From: the human T2T-CHM13v2.0 reference genome, Homo sapiens | Reading direction: 5' to 3' (one strand) | DNA: 64,000 nucleotides | NCBI RefSeq assembly: GCF_009914755.1 | Contig: NC_060927.1 | Shown here: one piece after another, positions 3,414-39,071 of the stretch | How positions within the stretch are numbered: position 1 is the first letter of the stretch | How the letters are laid out: every line of letters begins with the position of its first letter | Translations under genes and position numbers: made by a program | The notes under the pieces: generated by a model | The model's input: only the letters and a program-made list of their open reading frames with translations | Database searches by the model: none | What the model was told of the DNA's origin: nothing

Positions 3414-3753
3414 TCATAGAAGAGACAGTGGTCATTTGGAATGCCTTTTAAGGCCAGAACTAATATCAGTGGAGGGTCATTTAGGGAGATTTCAAGACAA
3501 ATAACAATTATTTTGCTGTTAAAGATTTTCAACTCTAGAATAAGCTTATTTTTTAAAATAGTGAGTCCTTTTGTCACAAGAAGTGTTTAAGTAAACATTG
3601 GCCAACGATCTGAAAGTGATGTTTCTATATTCATTTGCATGACCCCTAATCTTTCCTTAAGCTGTATGATTTCATGTACCATCTCAAATTATTTAGGACA
3701 AAGACTGTATATACCACCAACTGTCATATAAAACAAATGGAAGATATCCTTAC

Positions 3754-3798
3754 CAGATATACCAGCCATTAGGGTGTTGGTCATTATAATTTACACAC
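3754..3798 (-). CDS. TMEM207: TMEM207 coding exon 3 (CVNYNDQHPNGWYI-W)
   Basis: accag|G TGT GTA AAT TAT AAT GAC CAA CAC CCT AAT GGC TGG TAT ATC TG|gtaagg; 45 nt, phase 2-2. Confidence 0.95.
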
Positions 3799-5039
3799 CT
3801 GGTGATAAAGGGAGAGCGTTAGTCCTGGAACTCAGGATAGCCAAAGCCTATTTCTTTCACCCAATAAAATTGGTACTGATCACACTTGTTTCTCCAGAAC
3901 AGTCACCTACATATTCCCATACCAGCCCATATCGTCCCGCACCCAGCACAATTATGCAAATGTTTATGCCCACTCAATTCAAGGCACTGAGAATACAAGT
4001 AAATGTGAAATTATCAGACTGATACATAAACAGATAAATGCATTATAATGGGTTTGATTCTAGAGTTACAAATACTGTTAAGCATTGAGAAGGCAGTGAC
4101 TTAACTCTTCAGGGACAACAAATCGTAGGTGTTTGGTATTAGGTAGATAACCATTATAGCTATATTCTGTTCATCTAGAGACCTACAGTCATGTAAAACT
4201 CAAATTCTCCAGGGAAGAATATCTTGGTAGAGAATAGGAGGCATTGGACAACTGTTTGCCCTCTTGTTATACAATTGGTGAGGAAAGAAATTAGGCTAGG
4301 AGGAAAATGAATGAACGTGGCCATACCTACCATTTACCAAGGAGTTAGAAGTTGACTCCTTCAGTCAGGAAGTTGACCCTCCTGTGTGTGTCTAGCCACA
4401 ATTCAATCTTTCTTGAGAGAAGTTTTAAAATATCGCAGACAGACAAAGTTCACAGAGTGATTTTTGGGAGGTATAACTCCGTAGGTGTAGAGTCCCTCAC
4501 TATGCCTAACATGGCACACTAAATGTATGTGGGCTGATGGACTTTTTTCATACCTCAATATACAAGCTACTTTTAAGGTATTCTGAGCTGAGCTTGAACA
4601 GTGGAAATCTGTTATTCACAGTCAGATACACTTCTGAGAAGACACTATACTTAATCATATCTTCTTCAGCCATTGTTAAAATAACTCAGTTCATTGCAGT
4701 TTGAAGACATTCATAAATGTCAGTTAATTTATTGCATCTAGCTTCCCTGAGGAGGCAGTGTGTCATCCCATCATCATACCAGTCAGAAATGACTTTTAAC
4801 ATATGTGAAGTGTCAATTTAAAAATTCTATCACAAACATTTAAGACAAAAACCAATCACCCAGCCTACAGATGATTTCATTCCCCTCCACATATAAATCT
4901 CTGCGTCTTTTTCTTTTGTCTGTTTTCTGTTTATTTGCTCTTTGTTCTTTTGAGCGCCCAGAGTGTTTAGCAAAATTCACAGGTATGGCTGGAAAAAAAA
5001 AAATGGCAACTGAAGTGTGACTTTGAAAAGCATCCTAAG

Positions 5040-5400
5040 ACAAATGGCCATGAATAAAAGATGTGAAAAATAATTAATGGGACATACTTACAAGGGAATA
5101 TTATTCAATCATCAAAAATAATGTAAACATGTTTATAAATAAGTCTTGCTACATAAAATAGTATAGAGACTTCAATCTTACTTTGTATATATTATTTTCT
5201 ACAAGTACAATGATTTCGCCAAAATTACTACCAGACATAAATTTACACCAGACTACTGAAGTGCCCACTTCTCTTGAAGATGGCATTATGAAAAACTCTA
5301 TCCCTTTCATATTGTTTGAATTATTGTAATGTACACGAATCACTTTGTAGTAAAAAGAACTTTAAAATATTGTATTAAAAAATTAAAACCTTAAAAATAT
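5040..5400 (+). mobile_element. Old L1M(E) 3' fragment
   Basis: GGAATATTATTCAATCATCAAAAATAATG motif typical of L1M 3' regions; highly diverged. Confidence 0.45.
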
Positions 5401-5736
5401 ACATTTTTTAAGAGACAGATGTGGGGAAATTCTCTTGGTGTCCTGACACAATTAAAAAAGCTTTTTTTTTTTTTTGTTTTGTTTTGTTTTGTTTTTCTTT
5501 TTTGAATTGTGACATCTAAGCTCATGGTCAGGAGTATGGATTATTTCATCTTCCTCCTCTTCCTTTACTTTTTTTCTGTTTGAAAATAGCCCCTTTACTT
5601 ATCGTTAAACTCAATTCTAAATATTAACCACCTCATTGTGTTTCTTAAATCTAATTTTTAAGGCCCTCTATTTTTTTTTCTTCCTGGGCTAACAATTTTC
5701 CAAACCAACTTTATTTCACTTTTTTTTCTGAGCTGG

Positions 5737-5751
5737 TGCACCCTCTGGTGG
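5737..5751 (-). promoter_or_regulatory. Candidate CTCF site
   Basis: Minus strand CCACCAGAGGGTGCA, one mismatch to the CTCF core CCASYAGRKGGCRS. Confidence 0.5.
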
Positions 5752-6472
5752 AGTTTCTGATAAGAAATAACATGGCTAGGAAGCAGTTAGCTGGAGAAGT
5801 GCAGTAATCATGTAAGCTCCAAATCGCAGGCATCTTTGAGATCATTTATTGACCTTTAGGATTTTGCACGGTGTACCACTGAGACTTAAGGTGGAGAGAG
5901 GAAGAGGGGAATTCACTACGTAGTCAGAGAACTACACTGGAACATGTGTCTTTTGGCTCCATATGCTCCCCTCCTCGAATCATTATTTCCATTTCTCTCT
6001 TAAATTCAAGTTGTAAACAGAAACTTTTTGAGTTCCTAAAAAAGTAAGAGTATTCTAATTACTCAAATATTACTTCCAAGATATTCAGTATAGGAAAGGT
6101 TATATTTTTGAAAATGAAATTATTCCTCAGGGATTGGTCAAATTGGTATGATTATGGTAAAAAGAAAATCATCGGGGGGAAGTGAGAGCTGACTATAATG
6201 CGTAAGAAAGACATTTGGAATAAGAATTATCTAGAATTAATTGTTGAGGGAGATAATTTCTGTCCTTATCAGAACGATTTCCTTTTGTTACTTTGATGTC
6301 ATGGAGATGATTTCTGTGCAATACGAATGGTTAGATGAGTTGATCTTTATTCTTCTTCTCTGTGCTGAGAATCTGTGGACCTTAGATTACACATTTATGA
6401 ATTTGATAAATTCAGGAAGAAATATGCAGAGTTGCTTCATTGGTTTCTCTGTTACATCACTCAGCATTTTCT

Positions 6473-6705
6473 AGGGCAGACACTCTTCTAAAACCAGATG
6501 CGTAACTTCATGTGAAATAACGGACTCTCAAACTTACACCACTATACAGTAGGGTCATACTATTATAATTCTCCTTTTACAACTGAGAGAACTCAGTCAC
6601 AGAGCCATTAAGTAACTTGCGCAAGTTAGCATAGCTGGAAGTGGTAGAAGTAGGTTTTCAACCCAAATGCTCTGTCTGCAGAGTTCATGTCTCTTATCAC
6701 CATGT
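6473..6705 (-). mobile_element. MIR
   Basis: TTTTACAACTGAGAGAACTCAGTCACAGAG...TTAAGTAACTTGCGCAAG matches the reverse-complement MIR core. Confidence 0.8.
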
Positions 6706-7821
6706 CGTGGTGCGACTGGGACAGTAATAGCCAGCTCTAACCTCATAGTACCATGTGGAGTATTGCCTGAATGAATCCAGTATCCCGTGTTCCAAATGCT
6801 TTAAGGAAATACTGAAAATTAAAAAAAAAAAAAATAGAAATGAGAGCCTGGTGAGGATCAGACAGAGAATAGGCCAATAGTGAGATCAGTTTGTAAACCG
6901 AATATAGTAAATACCGTATATAAAATTTGAATTGAACTGTAGATCTGACTTAAGCTTCCTAGCAGCTAGCATAATGAGAGAGAATATTGGTTATATAGTG
7001 TCCTCTAAAATTAACAAAATGAACAGCATTACTCACCAGATGTACAACTATTCCTGGCATCGAAACCAGAGAAAAATTCAAGCTATGAGGCCTCATAAAG
7101 AGAACACTGTTAACATAAGAACAATGTTTTCCATAGTATTCTCAGAATAAATTCAGTAACAAATTGCATGAATTTTTTTTTATTTTTAAAAAGTCATTCC
7201 TCAACATAGGCCAAAGTGCAATTCAGCTACAGTAATTTGAGGGATGGATGAGTCACAAATCATATTACCCAGAAACTGGTAGTAAATTGTATAGTATCTC
7301 AAAGAATGAATGGACTATGCATATCTCAGGTATTTCACCAGATGTATAATTGATTAAATGTTGGATATACAATATAACTTTGTGGTTGAAATTCTGGGCT
7401 CAGGAGTCTGTCCCAGGTCCAAGTCCAAGCTCTGCCTTTTAACTTGCTTTCCTACTCTTGAGTAAGATATTTCACTTTATCAAGCCAAGCAAGATGTGGT
7501 ATATCATTAGAAAATCTATCAATGCAATTAATTTACAGAATCTTTTATATGTATAGTCATATTTATATTTCATAAATCAATCTATTTTTGTTCATTCATG
7601 CACATCAGTGTCCTTGGCTATTTATCAGAAGAGGACTAAGTCAGAAGTATGATAAGAGGGGCTCTGTCATGCTTTATTTCATAAAATAAATTACTTATAG
7701 CATTTAAATTTTATACAAAGACAGCACAGCAAAGCTTTGTTCATGTTAAAAATACAGTTAGAAAAGTAAAATAATTGGATTGGATCAGAAAAACGTACCC
7801 TGGTGTTGAAAACAAATTTAA

Positions 7822-8140
<319 letters not shown>

Positions 8141-10105
8141 GACCAGTTTTGTTTGTTTGTTTGTTTTAATGGAAAATATATGCAAATTGTTTCGCACAAT
8201 TCTTGGAACATAGAAGTTGATTAATACATATGTTTTTATTTCTAGCTAATCAGCACCTCCTCCACCATGGCCTCTACCTAGGCGATCCATGTTTCATGTT
8301 TTTACTTTGATGCTCCCTTGCATTCCAATCCAAGTCTCCCTTTTCTGTGTCCATTTTGCATGTGAACTTTGGACAAGCTACTGTCCTTTTGTGTTTCTCA
8401 TTTTTTAAAAGACATTTGGAGTAGGCCATCTTTACGGTCCTTTTCACTGTAATCTGCCATGTTTGTGTGTTACTCTCTTATAGCAGTGCTGGTAAATGGA
8501 TGAATATGGTCTCTTGGCTGGGTAGTGTATTTTATCAGGAGATAATGTCTCAGATCAAAGAAGTGATTTGAAACTGAAATCTCTTGTATAAATATAGTTA
8601 GAGAAAGAGGATTTTTCTTGGAGGGGACTTTTTACTCCCTCAGAAAACAGCATGACTTTCCTTACAGATTCATTCCGCTGACACTGTCTTGCGATAACAA
8701 AAGATTTGAGATATTGTGCACGTCTTCAATACATTTACTTACCTTATATGACCACCCTACATTCCCAGCCACTCTCTTTTTTGTGTTTATTTTCTGCCAA
8801 TTTACATTTCATTTGAGGGTTAATTTTTTTTTGTTTTTACTCAAAAGCAATTGTATTGAATAATGATAACCATTACAGACACTTAGTTGCAAAATGATGT
8901 AGCCAGAGAATGTGATGCCTAAGTACCAGTTGAAGCCCTACTACTCATTTACTATTTCTCTTAGGTTTCAATCCCTTCACCTAAAAGGGAGAGCGGTAGC
9001 CTCAGCTACCGCTAAAGTCAGCATAAAAACTTTCTTAATACCGTATGTTTCTGTCACGTTGATTAGAGTTAGATTCAACATTTAAGATCCTTTCCAATTC
9101 TGAACTTCTTTATTTTGTTAGTCTGGGTCAAAGGCAGAAGATGAGGAGATAAGATAAGGGCAGCCAGGAAATCCTGAGTCAGATAAGCATGCAAACAATC
9201 AAATACTCTGTTACATCACAAACAGCATAAGACAGAGTGAAAAAGCAGTTCCAAAATTAACGTAAAGAAATAGCAATCGAGAGCCATGCAAAAGCTGAAA
9301 GAGCAGCACAAATTTAATAAGCAGATTGTTAACAATAAGAAGATCCACCAGAAGCAGGTGAATGGTCCCAATTTCTGCTGTGAAATACAGTCATAGCCTC
9401 CTGCTATACAGAGAGCATGGCTTTGAGTGTAACAGGCAATGAAGACTGAAAACAGCTGCTAACAGTAAGGGCTGCAAGCAGGAGAAGATAGTGCTGGGTG
9501 GAAGTGCTTTTCTGATACTAAATCACAATGAATTACAGATATTAATTATCAGTATCATTATTAATGGCACCTTCTCTTCATCTCCTGAATAGAATTCTGA
9601 GAACCATTAAGTCTATCGCACAAAAAGTGAAAAAATTGAGTCAATTGTTCACATAATTCATATCACAAGCACTTTGAAATAGACACACAGTACAGGTTAG
9701 AATTTTGGTCAGTTTGCTTGTATTTTAAACTGAGTTATACAGAAAACTGCCTCCCTTGGTCACTGTGATTTTTGAGTGTGGATGAAGCCATAGATGACAT
9801 CATGATTCTTTTATGAACTTAAAGTACCCTTGAAACCTTAAGGAAGATAAATTCAGTGTGCAAAAATATCTAGAAATCAACTAGGCCTCTTATTTATTTA
9901 ACAAAGCTGATCGTAATGAAAATTATCTTTCCTGTTTTCAGAAAAAAAAATGGAGCCATCTGCATTTACAAACCATTTACTTTTCTTCTGATTATAATGA
10001 TCATTTGAAACTCAACTGGGCTTTTTCTAATGGCTTGAGCCTTTTTTATACTTTGAATTTTTTAAATGCGAAATAAAAACATGGAGTTTTTCGCTGTTTA
10101 CTTAC

Positions 10106-10143
10106 ATTTCATCTTCTTCGCATGGTAGGTCCGAGAGCACCAA
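10106..10143 (-). CDS. TMEM207: TMEM207 coding exon 2 (LVLSDLPCEEDE-M)
   Basis: tttcag|TTG GTG CTC TCG GAC CTA CCA TGC GAA GAA GAT GAA AT|gtaagt; 38 nt; phase 0 in, phase 2 out, consistent with the neighbouring exons. Confidence 0.95.
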
Positions 10144-12050
10144 CTGAAACACATGTTTAGAACAATAAAATCCAAACATCTCATCAGTCTAATCCTTTAA
10201 TACAAGCAGCGCCTAGAGACAATGTGGGTTTATATCATTTCGTTTGCTTTTTTAATTAAAAGCTCTATAGCAGAGTTTATTGTTGGTACACAGAATTTTA
10301 ATTGAAAAAATCTCTGGGTGGATTCTTAAGCTCAGCAGTGGCAGAAGATATATATTGTGAACCAGATTCCATTTCTACATACCAATATAAATGGATTTTA
10401 CGACAATTTTTGTTTTTTCTATATGCAGATTTTGCTTGCTCTAAAGAGCTTTTGTGCACTTTGCATTTTTTGTTTTCATGTTGTAGCTAGAGGTCAGAGG
10501 TTCATTATTAGTGAGTATTATTTTCACGCAAAAAAAAACAAGTTCCAAGTACATACATGGAAACAGAAGTCAAGCCTATTAGCATTAATGGGCATTAAAT
10601 ATATATTCATGAAAGGGCGACTTTAACCTGCTCTAAGGGTAAGGTCCATTTAAGATCACATGACATTCCAGTTGAGATTTACAGTCTTCTCTTTATCAGA
10701 GAAGAGAAAAAAAGTAATCATCTTTGTTGCTTTGTTTGAAAAGTCCAATACTATAAGCATTCTAAAATAATGCTCTTAGTTATCTGCACTGAGTGTCATA
10801 GGTTACAACATCTCATATACTAAATCACAAGGAAAAAGGCACTTCTTTCTAAAGATCTTATTATCTATTTGCTTGCTTGACCCTTTGAACCAGGACTCCT
10901 TCCTTGTACAAGGAGAAAGTCTTTAAACGGCATTTATGTGTAGCTCTGAACACTTAGTTGATGAAGTCAGTTGAAGTATTTATTTTCCTGGACTATAACA
11001 CGCAAATAAAAGTACAAGTAAGAAGTTACAAAATTTAAAGTGATAGACTTGGGAGTTCTGTGTGAGATGTGTCTTTTCCCCCCTTAATCCCAAAAGCATC
11101 TTCTTCAGCACCTTGTATTTACTCCACCAAGTTTATCTGGGCAAAGAGATTTGTGGAGTTGCAGATGGAGCCATGAATTGGCCATCAGAGAGCATGGTAA
11201 TGAACAATTTATAAGCACAGAAAATGAGTTGCATTCTTTTTTGCTAGAATGCTGCAAATAGATTTGCATACTAAGTGAAAGGAAAATGAACATTCACATT
11301 TTGTCCATAAAGAAAGTTTATTTATGAGTAGATGAAATCGTTTGGGATCCAGCTTAACAGATAAACAAATAAAACCAGTATTTCACTTTCAAGTCACTTC
11401 CGTGTTTTTTCTGTGTGTTGTACCCTAGCAATAGTACACAGTATTAAATTATTAGCACCTCACTGCCAACACATTAGCTGTCAAACTTCCAGTTATTATG
11501 AAGAGGTAAGGAAAGCTATAATTTACTTTAGATCTAAATCTTTCAGATACCTTGCATTGAAGTCACACAGATCTAGAGATGCACGTGTTAGTCAGAAGGG
11601 GATGCTGGAGCAGAGGAACTGAAATAAATCCTAAAATGGTTCTGTCTACATCAGTCAGCATTGAAAAACTGTCAAGCATCAAGTATGGTTGTAGGCAATA
11701 GTAAACATGTCTTAAATTAATCTAGCCATAGCATTTTGTTCTGTGTCAATAGCATTTTGAATTTAAAAAATTACAGCATAGCAAAGTTAAACAAAGGTTA
11801 AATTTGCAATCACGTTATTTCAGTAGCAATAGAACTAATTGAAGGAGAAATAAGACTAATGCCTTGGACATTTTGTTTTGTCCCTCTGACCAGTGAATAC
11901 AAGAAATCATAAGATGCTAGTAAAGCTTGAAGGAAATCTTTTAAATGTAGAAGCAGTTAAGTTGCTCACATATAAATCTATAGCAAATCAAGTCCTCAGA
12001 GTACCTCAGAGTACCTCTGAAAACCTTAACCCAGAAAGAGAGATAGTTAC

Positions 12051-12125
12051 CTGGAATAGCGGCAAACACAAGATCCCTATCGTTGAGATCGCTGAGGTGA
12101 CACTGAAAAGTCTGGATCTTGACAT
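12051..12125 (-). CDS. TMEM207: TMEM207 first coding exon (MSRSRLFSVTSAISTIGILCLPLFQ, signal-peptide region)
   Basis: Minus strand reads ATG TCA AGA TCC ... TTC CAG|gtaact; 75 nt, phase-0 donor; translation matches my recollection of the human TMEM207 N-terminus. Confidence 0.95.
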
Positions 12126-12300
12126 ATTTAAAGGACAGTCAACTTAGGATAGTGGTTTGGTGCCTGTGTTTATTTCCTTCTTTCTCAGAACTTACTAGCT
12201 TCTCTATAAGTTATGCTTCCTACCAGGACATGCATTAATAATGGCTCCTTGTGACTCGTAAAGTGCATGCTAGGGGAAGGAATGTTGGGTACATGTTTAC
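12126..12300 (-). promoter_or_regulatory. TMEM207: TMEM207 5' UTR / proximal promoter region
   Basis: Non-repeat sequence directly upstream of the ATG; TATA-like TTATAGAGA on the minus strand near 12201-12209; partial HNF1-like site near 12232-12245. The TSS cannot be fixed from sequence. Confidence 0.45.
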
Positions 12301-12619
12301 AGGTACTAAGAGCCCAAGGAATTTAAGTTTAAGGTGAGAACTTTAGCACTGTTTGTCAAGGCCTTTAAAAGTAGGGGTTATAAATGCTGACCTACAGAGC
12401 TAGCTGGCTACTTAATAACTTTCCACATTCAAGTGCATGTTTTATTCCAGGGAACTTCTGGGTTTCTAATAGTATTTCATATTTGGAACATTTATTCAAT
12501 TTTCTTCCCTTTGTTGGTACTCTTTGTTCTCCTACACACCATTTTCAGTTCCAGGTCTAACCCAAACTTAGGCATAAAGCTTTCCTTGTTTTATTGTGAT
12601 AATACCCCTCTTTTAAACA

Positions 12620-13690
12620 AGGTATATTTCAATGTTTATTTTATGAAACAACTCCATCACTACCACTGAAAAATAAAGCAAGAATATCTAGGGAAATTCT
12701 GAGAAAAAGAAAAGGCACTAACCTATTGTACATTAAGATGTCTTAATCTATGCATTTTACAAAAATTAGTACTGATATGTGTAAATAATAAGGTAAATGT
12801 AAAAGAGTAGAGAGTTTAGAAATGGAGAGTTTAGACTCAAATAAACAAATTTATTTAAGCTTCCATTTGAAACTAGTGGAGAGAAGATGGATATCTTTCA
12901 GGGTATAATGAAGAGCTAAATGGTTATGTGGAAAGAATGTAACAAATGATTGTTAAGATGCTTAACCTCAGTCATAATTAGATAAACATACCTTAGAATT
13001 ATAATCAGATTGGCAAGTTCAAAAAATTGATAATATAGGGAAGAGGGATAAATACTGGGAAACAAATACTCTCATATACGGTTGGGAAAACTGTACAGCT
13101 TATTTGGAAAACAAGTAGGCAATATACATCAACATAAAAAATAAATATGCCCTTAGAGCAAGAATTCTCCTTGCAAGATACATGAATGTACCCCTTACAC
13201 ATGGCACAAATTACTATATGCAATGATGTTCATCGAAGCATTGTTGGTGTTAACAAAATATTGGAAACAGCAAATATTCATGAAAATGTGACAGACTAAG
13301 TACAAAATGGTTATATAAATTCAACAGAATACTAGGAATCTGTTTTAAAAGGTGGAGACAGATCACAGATGCTGATATAGAGAGGTCTGTAATAGTTATT
13401 GAATAAAAGGAACAAAAATCACAGAACTTTGTGTACATCATGTCACATTTGTATGCAAAAATAGGAAGGTAGAGCTATAGTATTCTCTCCGTACACAAAA
13501 CTTATGCATATATACTTATATATGCATAGGATGTCTCTGCATGAAACTGCTAACAGTGGTTGCTCTGTGAAAGGGAAATTGCAAACTAAGAAGACCAGAG
13601 TGGGAAGGAAATTTACTTTTCACTGTTACTTCCTTGTATTTTTGATATTTTTTACAATGTCTATATGTCATCTAATTATTTTTTACATAT
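12620..13690 (+). mobile_element. Old L1ME-type fragment (ORF2 end and 3' UTR)
   Basis: Diverged L1 motifs, e.g. ATACTCTCATATACGGTTGGGA, GATGTTCATCGAAGCATTGTT, TTTACTTTTCACTG. Confidence 0.7.
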
Positions 13691-14629
13691 ATTCACTTCT
13701 AAGAGCCAATTTTGAAGGCAATGATCCACAATGCAGAATGAGAATATCGTAATTCAAGCTCCAGTGTAGTTCACCACATCCAATTCAAATTGTAATGTAT
13801 GAACCCATTTACAATCACACACATAGATTGCTCTAGAAACAAACCAGCAGTATTAGGTATCTAAACTACTGCACAGAGTTGGCCATCGCGGTATATGGAC
13901 TAGTTGAGCTGCATCTGGATGGGTGAAGCCGTCTGTGTGGTGACTACGCTCTGTTTAGTATGCAGCCACGGTCGCAGCCATGAATTTCAAAGCAGAGGAA
14001 GGCTTGGTGCCAATGCCAATAGGAGAAAAGTAAACCAAACCTACAGTATTATTTATCCCCCAGATACGCTCCATTTTGAGTGTCTCTGAAGCCTGTAATT
14101 AAACAGAATGAAAAATAGGCTTTTCACTGGTGAACTTATTTATTAGGCAGTCAGAAGCCTGACTTCCGTCGGTGGAGTCAATGATCTTAAGAATTTCTGG
14201 GAAAGGAAGAGGCCAGATGACTAGAGAAGAGACAGAATGGAAATAAGGGCAGCATATTTGGTTTTGCCTCAGAAACTGCAATAATGACCAACTACATACA
14301 TGGATTAAGTAATTATTGTCAAAAAAAATGCATGATTCTGCAGCAGCTGCCTGATTAGGAGTATGGCAGCTGAATGGAGATGGAGTCTATAGTCACAATA
14401 GTAATGCAAACACAGCAATTATATTTGGTGCTAAAATCAAAATTTATATTCATTTCCACCTTGCCATTTATCCATTTACTTCTGTGACTTTCCCATGCCA
14501 CTTCCAACGTCCAGCATAACAGTTTCTAAGACAGTAGTTTTTCTAGTACATTTCCTTCCTAGCATCATGAGAGTTTGGTGGTTGTGGAATACAAAATCTG
14601 ACCATGAGTGCAATTTTACCTGCAAAATT

Positions 14630-14890
14630 TTTTTAATAGATACTTAAAATTAAAATAGCTTATTTTGTGATAAATTTAAATTCACAGGCAGTCTTAAGAA
14701 CTACTACAGAGATCCCATATACTCTTCATTTAGCTTACCCCAGTGGTAGCATCTTACATAACTGTTATACATTATCACAACCAGAAAATTGACATGGAGG
14801 CAATCCACCATCGGCATGATTTTAAAAAAATTTATATGTACATAACAGTCGTTCATATTTATAGGGTACATGTGATATTTTATCACTTAA
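14630..14890 (-). mobile_element. Two abutting L1M 3' end fragments (L1MB/MC-like and L1MA-like)
   Basis: AAATTCACAGGCAG...ACAGAGATCCCATATAC...ACAACCAGAAAATTGACAT, then GTACATAACAGTCGTTCATATTTATAGGGTACATGTGATATTT. Confidence 0.7.
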
Positions 14891-32373: not shown

Positions 32374-34971
32374 CTTTGCTTATTTATTTTGTTCTACTCC
32401 TTTATTTTAAAAGATATGAATATAATTTTGCCTTAATAACTAGATTAACTGATTCTAATATTCATATAGAAAATTATATGAGAAAGAATATTCAGGAAAC
32501 TTTGAAAAGGTAGAGAAATAAGAGATGACTAGTACTACTAAATATAAAGCTTATTATGACAATATAATAATCTAAAATATATATTAGAAAATAAAATTAA
32601 AGTGACTACCTACCCGACTTTCTATATTAAAAAAACAAATAATTTAGAGGTTAGAATATAAAAATTAAGCCACAAAAGAACCAAAAAGATTATCATTAGA
32701 GTTATACACATGCACATGCAGAAACACAGGCATCCATAAATGAAGTGAGGCTGTTTTTTCTGGGTATAAAACAAAACTCAGAAACAGGGGTGAATTTATG
32801 GCTCCAAAATGGTGGTATAGAAACAAGTTGGCTTCACTCTCTATTTTCCCCCCCCAAAAAAAAACAACAAAAAAACAAAATTACAGTACCAAGATAATCA
32901 TTAGAAATATCTCAGAACTCAAATATGAAGATGAGACAGTGGTTCCTGGGACTATGGAGAAGTGAAAAAAACTTCAAGCAGATGGCAAGAGAATTGGACT
33001 TCCATATCTGCAGCACCCCATCCCCAATTCTGCCTGAAACCAAACACGTGGAAAGTTTTCCCCCTAAATCACTGTTTCTACACAAGTAAAAGTAAGATGG
33101 AGGTGCACAACCAGCTTCCTCACCCTCTTGGGTTTCTCGGCAAAAGAGCCATTTCTGCCTTAACCCACGGGAAGCATTGCTAATAAACAAAGAAAGAAAT
33201 ATCTTTGAGAACAGGCAGAGACAAAGCAGGGAGGTGGGACCACCATCCCCAGCCCAGAGAACTCTGCTGTGTAATTGGCCAAAGGAGATATCAAATCAGA
33301 ATAGCTGTTCAGCAGCACCATACTGTCAGAGGTATATCCCACAGGCCTCCTGAGCATAAACCTTTGTCTAGCCTTCCCACACTGCTGGGGTATCTTCTTT
33401 GGAGCCTCTTTCATTTTTTCATTCAAGAAGGACAGCAGTTTTCATCATTTACAAGAGCTAAGACAAACCTGGCTTAAGGTATTACCTACAGCTGAAAAGG
33501 AGGCAGTGACCTAGTGGTAAAAAACTTAATATATGGGTTATTCTAAACAAATGTATTCAATAAAAACCAAAACAAACCAGGCAGAGGAGACTGGAATAAA
33601 TAAATAATCCTTCAATGCAAAGACATAGGCATCCATCCACAATGAACAACAAAAAACAGAGAACCATGATCTCCCTAAATGAACAAAGCAAGAAACCAGT
33701 CACTGACCCTAAAGAGATGGCAATATGTGAGTTCTCTAAGAATTCAAAATGGTAATTTTAATGAAACTCAATGATCTACAAGATAACAAATAAAAGGATA
33801 TTAGAAATTTATCAGAGAAATTTAACAAAGAGATTTAAATAATAAAAAACTGAAAATTTGAAACTAAGAAATACATTTTCTGAACTGAAAAATTAATTAG
33901 AGGCTCTCAACTGCCGAAAGAATCAAGCACAGTAAGAACCAGTGAACTCAAAAACAAGCTACTTAAAAAATGCATAGAGAAGAAAAAAGAATGAAACGCA
34001 ATGCAGATTTTTCTGGAAGATATAGAAGATCACCTCCAAAGGCCAACCCTATGAATTACTGATGTTCCAGTGGGAATTGGGCAAGAGCAAGTGGTAGAAA
34101 GATTATTTCAAAGAAATAATAACAGAAAACTTTCCAAAACTTGAGAAAGATATAAAAATCCAGGAACAGACAGCTCAAAGAACACCAAACAGATCTGACC
34201 AATGAAGATTACCCCAAGACATATAATAATCAAACTCTCAAAGGTCAAGGACAAGGAGAGAATCCTAAAACAGGAAGAGAAAAGAATCAGATAACATATA
34301 AAGGAGCTCCAATTTTTCTGGCAACAGACTTCTCAACAGAAACCATACAGGCCAGGATAGAGTTCAATAACTTTATATTTTCAAAGTGCTGAAAGAAAAA
34401 AAACTGCCATCCAAGAAAATTGTATCCAATAAGCTTATCTTTCACAGATGAATGACAGATAAACCTTTTCTTATGCAAAAGCTGAGAGAATTCACCACAA
34501 GCAGACACATATTACAAGAAATGCTAAAGGAAATTCTTCAATCTGAAATAAACAACAACAAAAATGTGAAGGTATAAAGAAAGTGTAAAACCCACTGGTA
34601 AAATTAAGTACACAGACAATCGACAATACTCTAACAATTGAAGTTGTGGTGCAAAATCTATTCATAGATCTAATGTAAAGCGCTAAAGGCAAATCTGTCA
34701 ACAATAGTAATAGACACAGCAATGTGATACAAGATGGGTAATATAAAAATCATGAATCGAGATAACTAAAAGTCAAAAGTTGTGGAGGTTACAGTTACAG
34801 TGTAGAGGGTTTTCTTTTTCTTTTTGATCGTTTATAAGCTTTGTGATCTAAGATTAGTTGTTATCTCCTTAAAATAAGTTGTAATATCCATGAAGTGTTT
34901 TTATAAGCCTCATAGTAACCATAACACAAAAATCTATAACGAATTTACTAACAATAAAAAGCAACAAAGTA

Positions 34972-36533
34972 GTCCTCCTCTCCCTCTCCCTCCTCTCCCT
35001 CTCCCTCTCCCTCTCCCCACAGTCTCCCTCTCCCTCTCTTTCCATGGTCTCCCCCTGATGCCGAGCCAAAGCTGGACTGTACTGCTGCCATCTCGGCTCA
35101 CTGCAACCTCCCTGCCTGATTCTCCTGCCTCAGCCTGCCGAGTGCCTGCGATTGCAGGCGCGCGCCGCCACGCCTGACTGGTTTTCGTATTTTTTTGGTG
35201 GAGACGGGGTTTTGCTGTGTTGGCCAGGCTAGTCTCCAGCTCCTAACCACGAGTGATCCGCCAGCCTCGGCCTCCCGAGGTGCCGGGATTGCAGACGGAG
35301 TCTGGTTCACTCAGTGCTCAATGGTGGCCAGGCTGGAGTGCAGTGGCGTGATCTCGGCTCGCTACAACCTCCACCTCCCAGCTGCCTGCCTTGGCCCCCC
35401 AAAGTGCCAAGATTGCAGCCTCTGCCTGGCCGCCACCCCGTCTGGGAAGTGAGGAGCGTCTCTGCCTGGCCGCCCATCATCTGGGATGTGAGGAGCCTCT
35501 CTGCCTGGCTGCCCAGTCTGGAAAGTGAGGAGCGTCTCTGCCCGGCCGCCCATCGTCTGAGATGTGGGGAGCGCCTCTGCCCTGCCACCCCGTCTGGGAT
35601 GTGAGGAGCGTCTCTGCCCGGCCGCCCCATCTGAGAAGTGAGGAGACCGTCTGCCTGGCAACCGTCCCGTCTGAGAAGTGAGGAGCCCCTCCACCCGGCA
35701 GCCACTCCGTCTGGGAAGTGAGGAGCGTCTCCGCCCGGCAGCCACCCTGTCTGGGAGGGAGGTGGGGGTCAGCCCCCTGCCCAGCCAGCCACCCCGTCCG
35801 GGAGGTGAGGGGCGCCTCTGCCCAGCCGCCCCTACTGGGAAGAGAGGAGCCCCTCTGCCCGGCCAGCCGCCCCGTCCGGGAGGGAGGTGGGGGGGTCAGC
35901 CCCCCGCCCGGCCAGCTGCCCCATCCGGGAGGTGAGGGGTGCCTCTGCCCGGACGCCCCTACTGGGAAGAGAGGAGCCCCTCTGCCCGGCCACCACCCCG
36001 TCTGGGAGGTGTACTCAACAGCTCATTGAGAACGGGCCATGATGACAATGGCGGTTTTGTGGAATAGAAAGCAGGGAAAGGTGGGGAAAAGATTGAGAAA
36101 TTGGATGGTTGCCATGTCTGTGTAGAAAGAGGTAGACATGGGAGACTTTTCATTTTGTTCTGTACTAAGAAAAATTCTTCTGCCTTGGGATCCTGTTGAT
36201 CTGTGACCTTACCCCCAACCCTGTGCTCTCTGAAACATGTGCTGTGTCCACTCAGGGTTGAATGGATTAAGGGTGGTGCAAGATGTGCTTTGTTAAACAG
36301 ATGCTTGAAGGCAGCATGCTCGTTAAGAGTCATCACCACTCCCTAATCTCAAGTACCCAGGGACACAAACACTGCGGAAGGCCGCAGGGTCCTTTGCCTA
36401 GGAAAACCAGAGACCTTTGTTCACTTATCTGCTGACCTTCCCTCCACTATTGTCCTGTGACCCTGCCAAATCCCCCTCTGCGAGAAACACCCAAGAATGA
36501 TCAATAAAAAAAAAAAAAAGAAAGAAAAGAAAA
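34972..36533 (+). mobile_element. SVA retrotransposon (SVA_D/C-like), full length
   Basis: CCCTCT hexamers 34975-35036, antisense Alu-like domain, GC-rich VNTR ~35415-36005, SINE-R ~36010-36500, AATAAA at 36503-36508 and A-rich tail. Confidence 0.97.
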
Positions 36534-37488
<955 letters not shown>

Positions 37489-39071
37489 GCAACAAAGTAA
37501 AACACACTACCAGGGAAAATTACTTAGCCACAAGGGAAGACAGGAAGAAAGGCAGAGTTATAAAACAAATTTTTTAAAACTAACAAAATGGCAATATAAG
37601 TCTGTACGTGTCAATAGTAATAATGGCTATACATTAACTCAATTATTCAATTAAAAGGCATAGAGTGGCTGAATGGTTAAAGAAACAAGACCCAACTACA
37701 CACTGCCTACAAGAAATGACCTTCACCTATAAAGGTACATAGAGAGTGTTAGTGAAAGGATGTCAGATGATATTCCATGTAACTGGAAACCAAAATAAAG
37801 TAGGTACAACTATATTTATACCAGATAAAATAGTCTATAAATCAAAGACTGTAAAAAGAGACAAATAAGGTTACTATATAATTATAAAGGTGTTAAATCA
37901 GCAAAAGAACATAACAATTTTACATGTCTATGTGCCCAACATCATAGCTTCCAAGTACATAAAGCAAACTTTAATAAATTTAAAGGGTAAGATATACGAC
38001 AATACAATAATCATAGAGAACTTTAACACTCTACTCTCAATAATGGGCAGATCATCCAGACAGAAAAAAAGACTGAGAAACATTGGTGTTAAACTACACA
38101 TTAGGCCTAAGAGGCCTAACTAATATTTACAGAATATTTAATCCATATGCACATTCTTTTCATTGGCATGTGGAATGCTTTCCAGAACAGAACACAAATT
38201 AGTCCACAAAAAGTCTAAACAAATTTAAAAATTAGAAATTTTATCAAGTACATTTTTTTACCACAACGGAAGAAAAGTAGAAATCAATAACAAGAGAAAC
38301 TTTACAAATTTCACAAGCACATGGAGAGAAAAAAATAAGATTCTGAATAACTAATGGGTCAATGATGAAACTACGAACACAATTTTAAATTTTTTTGATA
38401 AAAATGAAAAGGGAAGTACAACATACCAAAATCTATGGATGCACCAAAAGCAGTGCTGAAAGAGAAGTTTATACTGAGAAATACCTAAATTGTAAAATAG
38501 AAAGCCTTCGAATAAGCAACTTAATAATGTGCTCCAAGGAACTAGAAAAGCAAGAACAAACCAAACACAAAATTAGTAGAAGAAAATAAATAATAAATAT
38601 CAGAGCAGAGATAAATTGTGACTAAAAAGAGCACAGAAGACCAACAAAACAAAAAGTTGGGTTTTTGAAAAGATAAAGAAAATTGACAAACCTTTGGCTA
38701 AACTAAGAAAAAAAAGAGACCTAAATAAATAATATCAGAAATAAAAAAGAAGACATAATTCAGACCACAGGAATACAAAGAATTATTAGAGACTATTATA
38801 AACAACTATGGACCAGCAAATTGGAAAATCTTGAAAAAATGGATAAATTCCTGGAAACATACAACTTACCAAGATCAAACAATGAAAAACCAGCAAACCT
38901 TAGTAACCCAATGATGAGTCACAAGATTGAAGCCATAATACAAATTTGCCCATTACAGAAAATCCAGGACCTTATGGATTCAATGCTAAATTATGCCAAA
39001 CATTTAAAAGAAGTAATACCAATTCTAGCCAAATTTTTCCAAAAAAAAAAAAAAAAAAAACAGAGAGAAGG

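What the first reader, a model, noticed from the sequence alone, without database searches (positions are those of the whole stretch)
34956..37499. SVA carrying a ~940-bp 3' transduction: foreign DNA moved into this locus
Seen: the 16-bp TSD AAAAAGCAACAAAGTA does not follow the SVA's own A-tail (36506-36533). It follows a second A17 tail at 37472-37488, which lies about 20 nt after an AATAAA (37447-37452). The left TSD sits at an L1-endonuclease-type site (TTTTT/A on the minus strand), and removing the whole unit rejoins the host L1. Established: SVAs read through their weak poly(A) signal and co-mobilise 3' flanks. Inference: 36534-37471 is a barcode of the source SVA locus. It holds an older antisense AluS within sequence resembling an ERV1/MER internal region, so an old Alu gained a new address without retrotransposing itself.
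Basis: partly seen in the sequence, partly recalled or inferred. Interest (0 to 1): 0.8.

Follow-up and report, generated by a model that had tools for sequence, protein, structure and literature searches.

The report
SVA with 3' transduction, source found
This is an ordinary SVA jumping element that carried about 945 bases of its old neighbourhood on chromosome 2 into chromosome 3, a well-known process, and its parent locus and nine sibling copies can be found in the same genome.

Summary
A full-length SVA (34972-36526) is followed by about 945 bp of non-SVA DNA (36527-37471), an AATAAA (37447-37452), an A17 tail and the second copy of a 16-bp target-site duplication. The whole unit sits at a TTTTT/AT site in an old L1.

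On contig C2 (85,489,003-85,492,036) an SVA abuts the same DNA. There the sequence runs on past the cleavage site with no poly(A), and the SVA alone is bracketed by its own 18-bp duplication. The right-hand copy of that duplication was carried into the window (36527-36544).

Nine siblings with separate 13-18-bp duplications exist. Four keep SVA sequence and five are 5'-truncated "orphans" with none.

Shared substitutions show that the source fired over a long period, and the window copy belongs to the early wave. The transduced DNA is part of the interior of an old LTR element, split by an antisense Alu. The AATAAA that was used reads AATAAT in 4 of 4 paralogs.

The mechanism is textbook: new detail, no new biology. 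Interest is low. Ape orthologs could not be checked.

The parts
34956..34971 (+). Left target-site duplication AAAAAGCAACAAAGTA. It is preceded by AT, giving an L1-endonuclease-type site TTTTT/AT on the minus strand.
34972..35038 (+). SVA 5' end: G, T, then the (CCCTCT)n hexamer array
35039..35417 (+). SVA Alu-like region (7SL-derived sequence in antisense)
   Evidence: Metazoa_SRP match at 35199-35306 on the minus strand, E 1.5e-4; repeat families D6-D8..
35418..36011 (+). SVA VNTR: period about 37-40 nt, about 15 copies
36012..36508 (+). SVA SINE-R, ending in the element's own AATAAA (36503-36508). It carries two sub-lineage markers: A at 36114 and a 4-bp deletion at 36424.
36506..36526 (+). 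The SVA's own A-rich tail, copied from the source locus rather than added at this insertion
36527..36544 (+). Copy of the source locus's 3' target-site duplication, AAGAAAATTGGAAAGGCT
   Evidence: the same 18-mer lies immediately 5' of the SVA on C2.
36527..37471 (+). 3' transduced segment (about 945 bp), from C2:85,491,082-85,492,036
36545..36617 (+). First piece of an old LTR-element interior, contiguous with 36934-37471 in paralogs that lack the Alu
36618..36933 (-). Dimeric Alu in antisense, with its T-run at 36618-36650. It was already present at the source.
   Evidence: Metazoa_SRP on the minus strand at 36815-36931 (E 1.5e-12) and 36649-36796 (E 0.005)..
36934..37471 (+). Second piece of the old LTR-element interior
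   Evidence: about 30 paralogs at 70-78% identity..
37447..37452 (+). The downstream AATAAA used for cleavage 19-20 nt later. It reads AATAAT in 4 of 4 old paralogs.
37472..37483 (+). Poly(A) added to the read-through transcript. The A run extends to 37488 and overlaps the first five A of the duplication.
   Evidence: absent at C2.
37484..37499 (+). Right target-site duplication
34156..34389 (+). Host L1: remnant of ORF1p
   Evidence: LINE-1 ORF1p chains, E 1.3e-4
37869..38120 (+). Host L1: remnant of the ORF2p endonuclease (residues 95-161)
   Evidence: LINE-1 ORF2p 8sxt, E 1.1e-13

Best explanation
**What it is.** The unit 34972-37483 is one L1-mediated retrotransposition of a read-through transcript from an SVA that sits at C2:85,489,003-85,491,081 of this assembly.

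**How it arose.**
1. That SVA had inserted, with an 18-bp duplication, into the interior of an old LTR element that already held an antisense Alu.
2. Transcription began at or just upstream of the SVA 5' end.
3. It ran through the SVA's own AATAAA and tail. It was cleaved 19-20 nt after an AATAAA about 920 bp downstream.
4. The polyadenylated RNA was reverse-transcribed at a TTTTT/AT nick in an old L1 on chromosome 3. This made a 16-bp duplication.

The same source locus did this at least ten times. The window copy belongs to the earlier wave. No sampled sibling shares any of its private changes, so none of them derives from it.

**Shown by sequence:** the anatomy, the source locus, the siblings, the duplications and the order of markers.

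**Inferred from established knowledge:** Pol II read-through, and L1 ORF2p as the enzyme. The dates are also inferred.
For: **Anatomy.** The anatomy and the 16-bp duplication are as described.

**Whole-genome searches.**
- With 36934-37471: 10 loci at 95-99% identity besides the window itself. All other rows are at 70-83%.
- With 36534-36617: 6 of those same loci at 92-98%.
- With the last 132 bp: the same 10 loci at 96-97% and nothing else above 81%.

**Only C2 lacks a poly(A).**
- After ...AAGAAGTT it continues ACTTAAAAGTTG, then two Alus.
- It then resumes colinearity with paralogs of the old element. L012 7189-7360 matches positions contiguous with those matched by 6400-6554.

**The SVA's own duplication at C2.**
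- At C2 the SVA alone is bracketed by AAGAAA[A/G]TTGGAAAGGCT.
- The right-hand copy follows the internal tail in the window and in C4, C5, C13 and C19.
- The C4 sibling also carries 21 nt of C2's 5' flank with 1 mismatch.

**Siblings are separate events.** All 9 siblings have their own 13-18-bp duplications.

**Star-like variation.**
- Private substitutions: window 8 of 1390 sites, C19 14 of 1398, C13 7 of 1378, C5 5 of 1396, C2 5 of 1393, C4 2 of 1394.
- Three transduced-region sites (36533, 36606, 37287) split the family into {window, C19, C5, C20} and {C2, C4, C1, C13, C8, C10}. 36775 splits it the same way, except that C4 there carries a third state (T).
- At 36533, 36606 and 37287 the first group agrees with the old paralogs (4 of 4, 2 of 2 and 4 of 4). 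36775 lies inside the Alu and was not compared.
- Two Alu-like sites (35045, 35375) give the same split.

**Pre-insertion site.** 12 of 13 paralogous L1 copies join the two flanks through a single 16-bp copy.

**Published description.** The review PMC4859970 (passages read) describes exactly this signature for 3' transductions: two A stretches, with the source's 3' duplication inside the transduced part.
Against: - No orthologous empty site in another primate could be examined.
- The two SINE-R markers (A36114 and the 4-bp deletion at 36424) are absent from C19 and C13. The window, C5, C4 and C2 all have them. This conflicts with the order given by the transduced and Alu-like regions for C13.
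- C1 and C14 share G at 37394, which C2 lacks today.
- A lost or unsampled intermediate source for the early group therefore cannot be excluded.
- The search scores only the best candidates (131 found, 40 scored). Very short or diverged copies could have been missed.
Confidence: 0.94

Rival explanations
1. The transduction is real, but the window copy descends from an intermediate daughter element rather than directly from C2. That daughter would be a full-length SVA plus transduction that is now lost, polymorphic or unsampled.
For: The early group {window, C19, C5, C20} shares four states that differ from C2 today. Marker conflicts exist in the SINE-R. PMC12593883 (section 7 read) reports that offspring elements can themselves act as sources.
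Against: The early group's states match the old paralogs at the three of those four sites that were compared. They are therefore ancestral, not derived, and no intermediate is needed. None of the sampled daughters shares a private change with another. No further copy was found in this assembly.
Confidence: 0.12
2. Two separate insertions. A retrocopy of the Alu-bearing LTR-interior fragment landed first, and an SVA later landed exactly at its 5' end.
For: Two A-tails are present. A sibling made of the fragment alone exists (C1).
Against: No duplication brackets the SVA alone in the window. The identical SVA-tail/flank junction is found at 5 other loci, and at C2 it is the native junction with the SVA's own duplication.
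Confidence: 0.01
3. DNA-level duplication of the C2 locus (segmental duplication or gene conversion), not retrotransposition.
For: 97.9% identity to C2 over the 1,470-column alignment from the SINE-R to the end of the transduction.
Against: The copy starts at the SVA 5' end. It stops 19-20 nt after an AATAAA with an A17 that C2 does not encode. It has a 16-bp duplication at a TTTTT/AT site. Nine siblings end at the same point. Eight end at exactly the same site and C13 ends 7-8 nt earlier, each with its own duplication.
Confidence: 0.01

Closest known systems
SVA 3' transduction groups in the human reference (Xing et al. 2006 PNAS, recalled and not held here; polymorphic groups in PMC12593883 and PMC12350158, passages read)
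   Same: Read-through of the SVA poly(A) signal. Co-mobilised 3' flank. Two A stretches. The source's 3' duplication sits inside the transduced part. Several offspring share one barcode and can be traced to one source.
   Different: Nothing in kind. At 945 bp this transduction is longer than the 258-bp median for 3' events reported in PMC12593883 (section 7). I could not check whether this particular group is already listed.
L1 3' transduction (reviewed in PMC4859970, passages read)
   Same: The same mechanism and the same insertion hallmarks: target-site duplication, endonuclease site, use of a downstream AATAAA.
   Different: The mobilised element is the non-autonomous SVA, which borrows L1 proteins in trans.
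Orphan 3' transductions. The SPTA1 SVA insertion is listed as 'Orphan 3'-transduction' in the PMC4859970 table. PMC12350158 reports 48 orphan events.
   Same: Five siblings (C1, C8, C10, C20, C14) are 5'-truncated inside the transduced part and contain no SVA sequence.
   Different: These five are present in the reference assembly and form a series from a single source. The window copy itself is not an orphan.
SVA 5' transductions (Damert 2009 and Hancks 2009, recalled; summarised in PMC4859970 and PMC12593883)
   Same: The C4 sibling starts 21 nt upstream of the source SVA and so carries both 5' and 3' flank. PMC12593883 found that 32 of 217 transducing SVAs carry both.
   Different: The window copy starts at the SVA 5' end. 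It has at most 1 nt of source flank plus an extra G.

Membership tests
SVA retrotransposon | [quoted passage not shown] | tested here: met
   Hexamer array and VNTR by TRF. 7SL-derived antisense match in the Alu-like part. The SINE-R stretch is shared with at least 42 other genomic copies. AATAAA at 36503-36508. The HERV-K origin of SINE-R is recalled, not tested.
L1-mediated (TPRT) insertion | Target-site duplication of about 4-20 bp bracketing the whole insert, with a terminal poly(A) | tested here: met
   A 16-bp exact repeat, present only at the two ends. A17 at the 3' end.
L1-mediated (TPRT) insertion | Insertion at a T-rich/A endonuclease site (consensus TTTT/AA) | tested here: met
   TTTTT/AT on the minus strand at 34955/34956. 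The consensus is taken from PMC4859970 table entries and general knowledge.
3' transduction | Non-element DNA between the element's own tail and the terminal poly(A), ending shortly after a downstream poly(A) signal | tested here: met
   36527-37471, with AATAAA at 37447-37452, 19-20 nt before the tail.
3' transduction | A source locus where the element and the same flank are contiguous and the flank continues without poly(A) | tested here: met
   C2:85,489,003-85,492,036 and beyond.
3' transduction | The source's 3' target-site duplication is carried as the first bases of the transduced segment | tested here: met
   AAGAAAATTGGAAAGGCT at 36527-36544 equals the 18-mer 5' of the C2 SVA.
3' transduction | Empty pre-insertion site | tested here: inconclusive
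   Paralogous L1 copies show the flanks joined through one 16-bp copy in 12 of the 13 loci that both flank searches hit. The orthologous site in other primates could not be examined.
   Paralogs lie between direct repeats of about 540 bp (76.6% identical) 8.7 kb apart at C3:158.13 Mb, and in a colinear unit on C23. 0 of 62 stop-free ORF fragments hit any Pfam family (0 of 27, 0 of 35). The class is not determined.

The most novel reading that the evidence does not exclude
The C2 element may be a long-lived master SVA. It stayed active while its own sequence accumulated at least 8 substitutions. It may have founded the 21-42-copy sub-lineage that shares A36114 and the 4-bp SINE-R deletion. It produced a series of five orphan transductions present in this assembly. 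The mosaic SINE-R of siblings C13 and C19 would then record either reverse-transcriptase template switching between SVA RNAs or gene conversion between dispersed SVAs.
Probability: 0.2. Interest if true: 0.35.

Novelty: already known. Interest (0 to 1): 0.2.

Why it matters
It gives a clean, fully resolved worked example of SVA 3' transduction: source, ten offspring, an order of birth, and passive movement of an old Alu and an LTR-element fragment to ten new addresses. It is useful as a lineage barcode for dating SVA activity and for checking repeat annotation of the five SVA-less orphan copies. Those would otherwise look like unexplained dispersed duplicates. It does not change what is known about the mechanism. 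No effect on TMEM207 or IL1RAP is indicated.

Tried and rejected
- **Pfam on translated L1 flanks.** Stop-free fragments gave no L1 family: 0 of 4, with one sub-threshold unrelated hit. The PDB sequence search then identified ORF1p and ORF2p.
- **Naming the old repeat in the transduced part.** No Pfam hit in 62 ORF fragments. No similarity to anything else in the window. The LTR termini and duplication of the C3:158.13 Mb copy were read by eye without a clear 4-6-bp duplication, so the class is left open.
- **Whether the AATAAA is a native LTR signal.** Rejected. It lies in the interior, and 4 of 4 paralogs read AATAAT.
- **Literature.** Xing 2006 and Damert 2009 are not held. Number searches for T2T coordinates 85.44-85.49 Mb found nothing relevant in the supplements of PMC12593883 (all six prefixes 8544-8549). 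The same holds for PMC12350158 (prefixes 8548 and 8549 plus '2p11' only). One of the latter's files was cut when stored, and GRCh38 coordinates of the locus are unknown to me, so this is weak.
- **A combined marker pattern.** A shorter one worked.
- **Subfamily of the SVA (A-F) and of the Alu.** These could not be assigned without consensus libraries.
Full report
**1. The observation**

Reading 34700-37800 shows a complete SVA on the + strand.
- After the 16-mer AAAAAGCAACAAAGTA (34956-34971) come G, T and a (CCCTCT)n array. TRF places the array at 34977-35038.
- Next is an Alu-like region, which gives a minus-strand 7SL match at 35199-35306 (E 1.5e-4).
- Next is a VNTR of period about 37-40 nt at 35418-36011.
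- Last is the SINE-R, ending in AATAAA (36503-36508) and an A-rich tail.

The 16-mer does not recur after that tail. It recurs at 37484-37499, after 945 bp of other DNA, an AATAAA at 37447-37452 and an A17 run at 37472-37488.

The 16-mer has exactly two matches in the window even with two mismatches allowed. The shuffled expectation is 0.25. The site reads TTTTT/AT on the minus strand.

**2. The host**

The flanks belong to an old L1 on the + strand.
- A stop-free fragment at 37869-38120 matches residues 95-161 of human LINE-1 ORF2p (8sxt, E 1.1e-13).
- A fragment at 34156-34389 matches LINE-1 ORF1p (E 1.3e-4).

I searched the window's own assembly with the left flank plus duplication and with the duplication plus right flank. 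Each search listed 39 paralogs at 71-76% identity. Thirteen loci occur in both lists. In 12 of them the two hits overlap by exactly the 16 bases of the duplication. In the thirteenth (C22) the register is off by 21 bases.

**3. The source and the siblings**

The assembly that holds the window can be searched.
- With 36934-37471 (131 candidates, 40 scored, 44 rows) there are ten loci at 95-99% besides the window itself. Six are full-length for the query at 99%: C8, C4, C19, C2, C1 and C5. C13 is full-length at 95%. Three are partial: C10, C20 and C14. All remaining rows are at 70-83%.
- With 36534-36617 (12 rows) six of the same loci match at 92-98%.
- With the last 132 bp (40 rows) the same ten loci match at 96-97% and nothing else exceeds 81%.

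Nine of the ten loci end in a poly(A). Eight of them end at the same site, and C13 ends 7-8 nt earlier. Each has its own 13-18-bp duplication.
- C4, C5 and C13 are full-length SVAs with the transduction.
- C19 is truncated in the VNTR.
- C1, C8, C10, C20 and C14 start inside the transduced segment, at window positions 36541, 36793, 37126, 37150 and 37309. They hold no SVA sequence.

The tenth locus, C2, has no poly(A).
- After ...AAGAAGTT it continues ACTTAAAAGTTG, followed by two Alus (L012 6555-7188).
- It then resumes colinearity with paralogs of the same old repeat.
- Upstream, the SVA at C2 is preceded by AAGAAAATTGGAAAGGCT. Its tail is followed by AAGAAAGTTGGAAAGGCT. The SVA alone therefore has a duplication there.
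- In the window the right-hand copy sits at 36527-36544, directly after the internal tail. The same holds in C4, C5, C13 and C19.

This is the signature the review PMC4859970 gives for 3' transductions (passages read). The C4 sibling also begins with 21 nt of C2's 5' flank with one mismatch, so that transcript started upstream of the SVA. C2 is therefore the native locus, and the window unit is its retrotransposed read-through transcript.

**4. What was carried**

The 84-bp piece (36534-36617) and the 538-bp piece (36934-37471) are adjacent in old paralogs at C9:120.02 Mb and C11:20.40 Mb. At the source an Alu had split them.

Rfam finds 7SL-derived matches on the minus strand at 36815-36931 (E 1.5e-12) and 36649-36796 (E 0.005). 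This is a dimeric Alu in antisense. It is present at the same place in C2 and in every sibling that reaches that far: 6 complete plus C8 partial. The Alu therefore moved as a passenger.

The old repeat is long. Pairwise homology runs across the whole 2-2.5 kb fetched. In two 20-kb stretches it lies between direct repeats. At C3:158.13 Mb these are about 540 bp long, 76.6% identical and 8.7 kb apart. A colinear unit lies on C23. This supports "interior of an LTR element". No protein family was detected in 62 stop-free ORF fragments (0 of 27, 0 of 35). The class (ERV1 or other) is open, as are the Alu and SVA subfamily names.

The AATAAA that ended the transcript reads AATAAT in 4 of 4 aligned paralogs. 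The signal seems to have arisen by a point change in the C2 copy.

**5. Order of events**

I aligned the SINE-R plus transduction of all 11 copies. I excluded the two homopolymer zones and all gapped columns.

| Copy | Private substitutions | Sites covered |
|---|---|---|
| Window | 8 | 1390 |
| C19 | 14 | 1398 |
| C13 | 7 | 1378 |
| C5 | 5 | 1396 |
| C2 | 5 | 1393 |
| C4 | 2 | 1394 |
| C1 | 2 | 897 |
| C10 | 4 | 350 |
| C8 | 0 | 683 |
| C20 | 0 | 326 |
| C14 | 0 | 167 |

- No private change of any daughter is shared. None of the sampled daughters, the window copy included, was the parent of another.
- Three sites in the transduced part (36533, 36606, 37287) divide the family into {window, C19, C5, C20} and {C2, C4, C1, C13, C8, C10}. 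36775 divides it the same way, except that C4 there has T where C2, C1 and C13 have C.
- At 36533, 36606 and 37287 the old paralogs carry the first group's state (4 of 4, 2 of 2, 4 of 4). 36775 lies inside the Alu and was not compared. The left-hand duplication copy at C2 also has the first group's A.
- The first group is therefore the earlier wave, and C2 changed afterwards.
- The Alu-like region agrees. Sites 35045 and 35375 give the same split. Sites 35062 and 35251 are shared only by C4 and C2.
- The source thus fired repeatedly while it accumulated at least eight substitutions.

Taking roughly 1e-9 substitutions per site per year (a recalled figure), 8 of 1390 puts the window insertion very roughly at 6 million years, with wide Poisson limits. 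This is inference only.

C2's own signal now reads AATTAA. This change is private to C2, so it did not cause the read-through.

**6. What does not fit**

- Two SINE-R markers, A at 36114 and a 4-bp deletion at 36424, are present in the window, C5, C4 and C2. They are absent in C19 and C13.
- They are sub-lineage traits. 42 genomic SVAs carry the deletion junction (38 exact, 4 with one mismatch). 21 carry it together with A36114.
- C13 groups with the late wave by its transduced and Alu-like parts, so its SINE-R is mosaic. Possible causes are gene conversion, template switching, or recombination between old alleles of the source. I could not decide between them.
- C1 and C14 share G at 37394, which C2 lacks today.
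- An unsampled intermediate source for the early wave cannot be excluded. I give it about 0.12.

**7. Comparison with what is known**

- SVA 3' transduction is established (PMC4859970, passages read).
- In polymorphic SVAs, 127 of 217 transducing elements carry a 3' event and 32 carry both 5' and 3' events. The median length of 3' events is 258 bp. Offspring share barcodes traceable to sources (PMC12593883, section 7 read).
- PMC12593883 states that orphan transductions had not been described for SVA. However, the table in PMC4859970 lists the SPTA1 SVA insertion as an orphan 3' transduction, and PMC12350158 counts 48 orphan events (passages read). The five orphans here are not new in kind.
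- The reference-genome catalogue of Xing et al. 2006 is not held. Whether this group is already listed is unknown to me.
- Number searches of the supplements of PMC12593883 and PMC12350158 (one file cut when stored) found no entry near C2:85.49 Mb.

**8. Verdict**

Its own proposed test succeeds: a source with no poly(A), plus siblings.

Three corrections are needed.
- The transduction starts at about 36527 and opens with the source's duplication.
- The labels "ERV1" and "AluS" are unverified.
- The event is one of at least ten from the same source.

The kind of event is already known, and interest is low. The ape-ortholog test remains to be done.

Noticed in passing
L012 (G000:C2:85485500-85493500), SVA at locus 3504-5582: The source SVA's own poly(A) hexamer now reads AATTAA (still containing ATTAAA). 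This change is private to C2 and absent from all offspring. The element lies directly after a (GGAA)n/(GGCA)n simple repeat.
   Followed up: partly
L010 (G000:C4:3535000-3543000, minus-oriented), insert C4:3536516-3539475: This sibling carries both a 21-nt 5' transduction of the C2 flank (1 mismatch) and the 945-bp 3' transduction. Its duplication is AAGAGTGCCCTGG.
   Followed up: yes
G000 C1:150770400-150771373, C8:80789969-80790674, C10:74543498-74543882, C20:49615700-49616056, C14:71729244-71729435: Five SVA-less 'orphan' copies of the transduced segment (173-957 bp), each with poly(A) and a 15-18-bp duplication. Without the source they would look like unexplained dispersed duplicates.
   Followed up: yes
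window 36114 and 36424; 42 loci genome-wide: A small SVA sub-lineage shares a 4-bp SINE-R deletion (42 copies) and A36114 (21 copies). Siblings C13 and C19 lack both markers although they carry the C2 barcode, so their SINE-R is mosaic.
   Followed up: partly
window 35226-35409: The window copy has a cluster of private changes in the Alu-like region at 9 positions. Six are G to A (35226, 35231, 35249, 35409) or G to T (35290, 35303). The other three are 35304 and 35327 (C to G) and 35399 (G to C). This is denser than in the SINE-R or the transduced part.
   Followed up: no
window 37435: The window copy has a private 4-bp deletion (TGTT/TTTG) in the transduced part, 12 nt upstream of the AATAAA. 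All ten other copies keep these bases.
   Followed up: no
L015 (G000:C13:40170000-40178200): Sibling C13 was polyadenylated 7-8 nt earlier than the others. It also carries an 18-bp deletion (window 36997-37014) and a 4-bp deletion (36589-36592).
   Followed up: partly
L024+L025 (G000:C3:158129001-158149000), about 5449-14684: An old LTR-flanked unit: direct repeats of about 540 bp, 76.6% identical, ends ...CCTACA. Its interior is the family of the transduced DNA. No recognisable coding remnants were found.
   Followed up: partly
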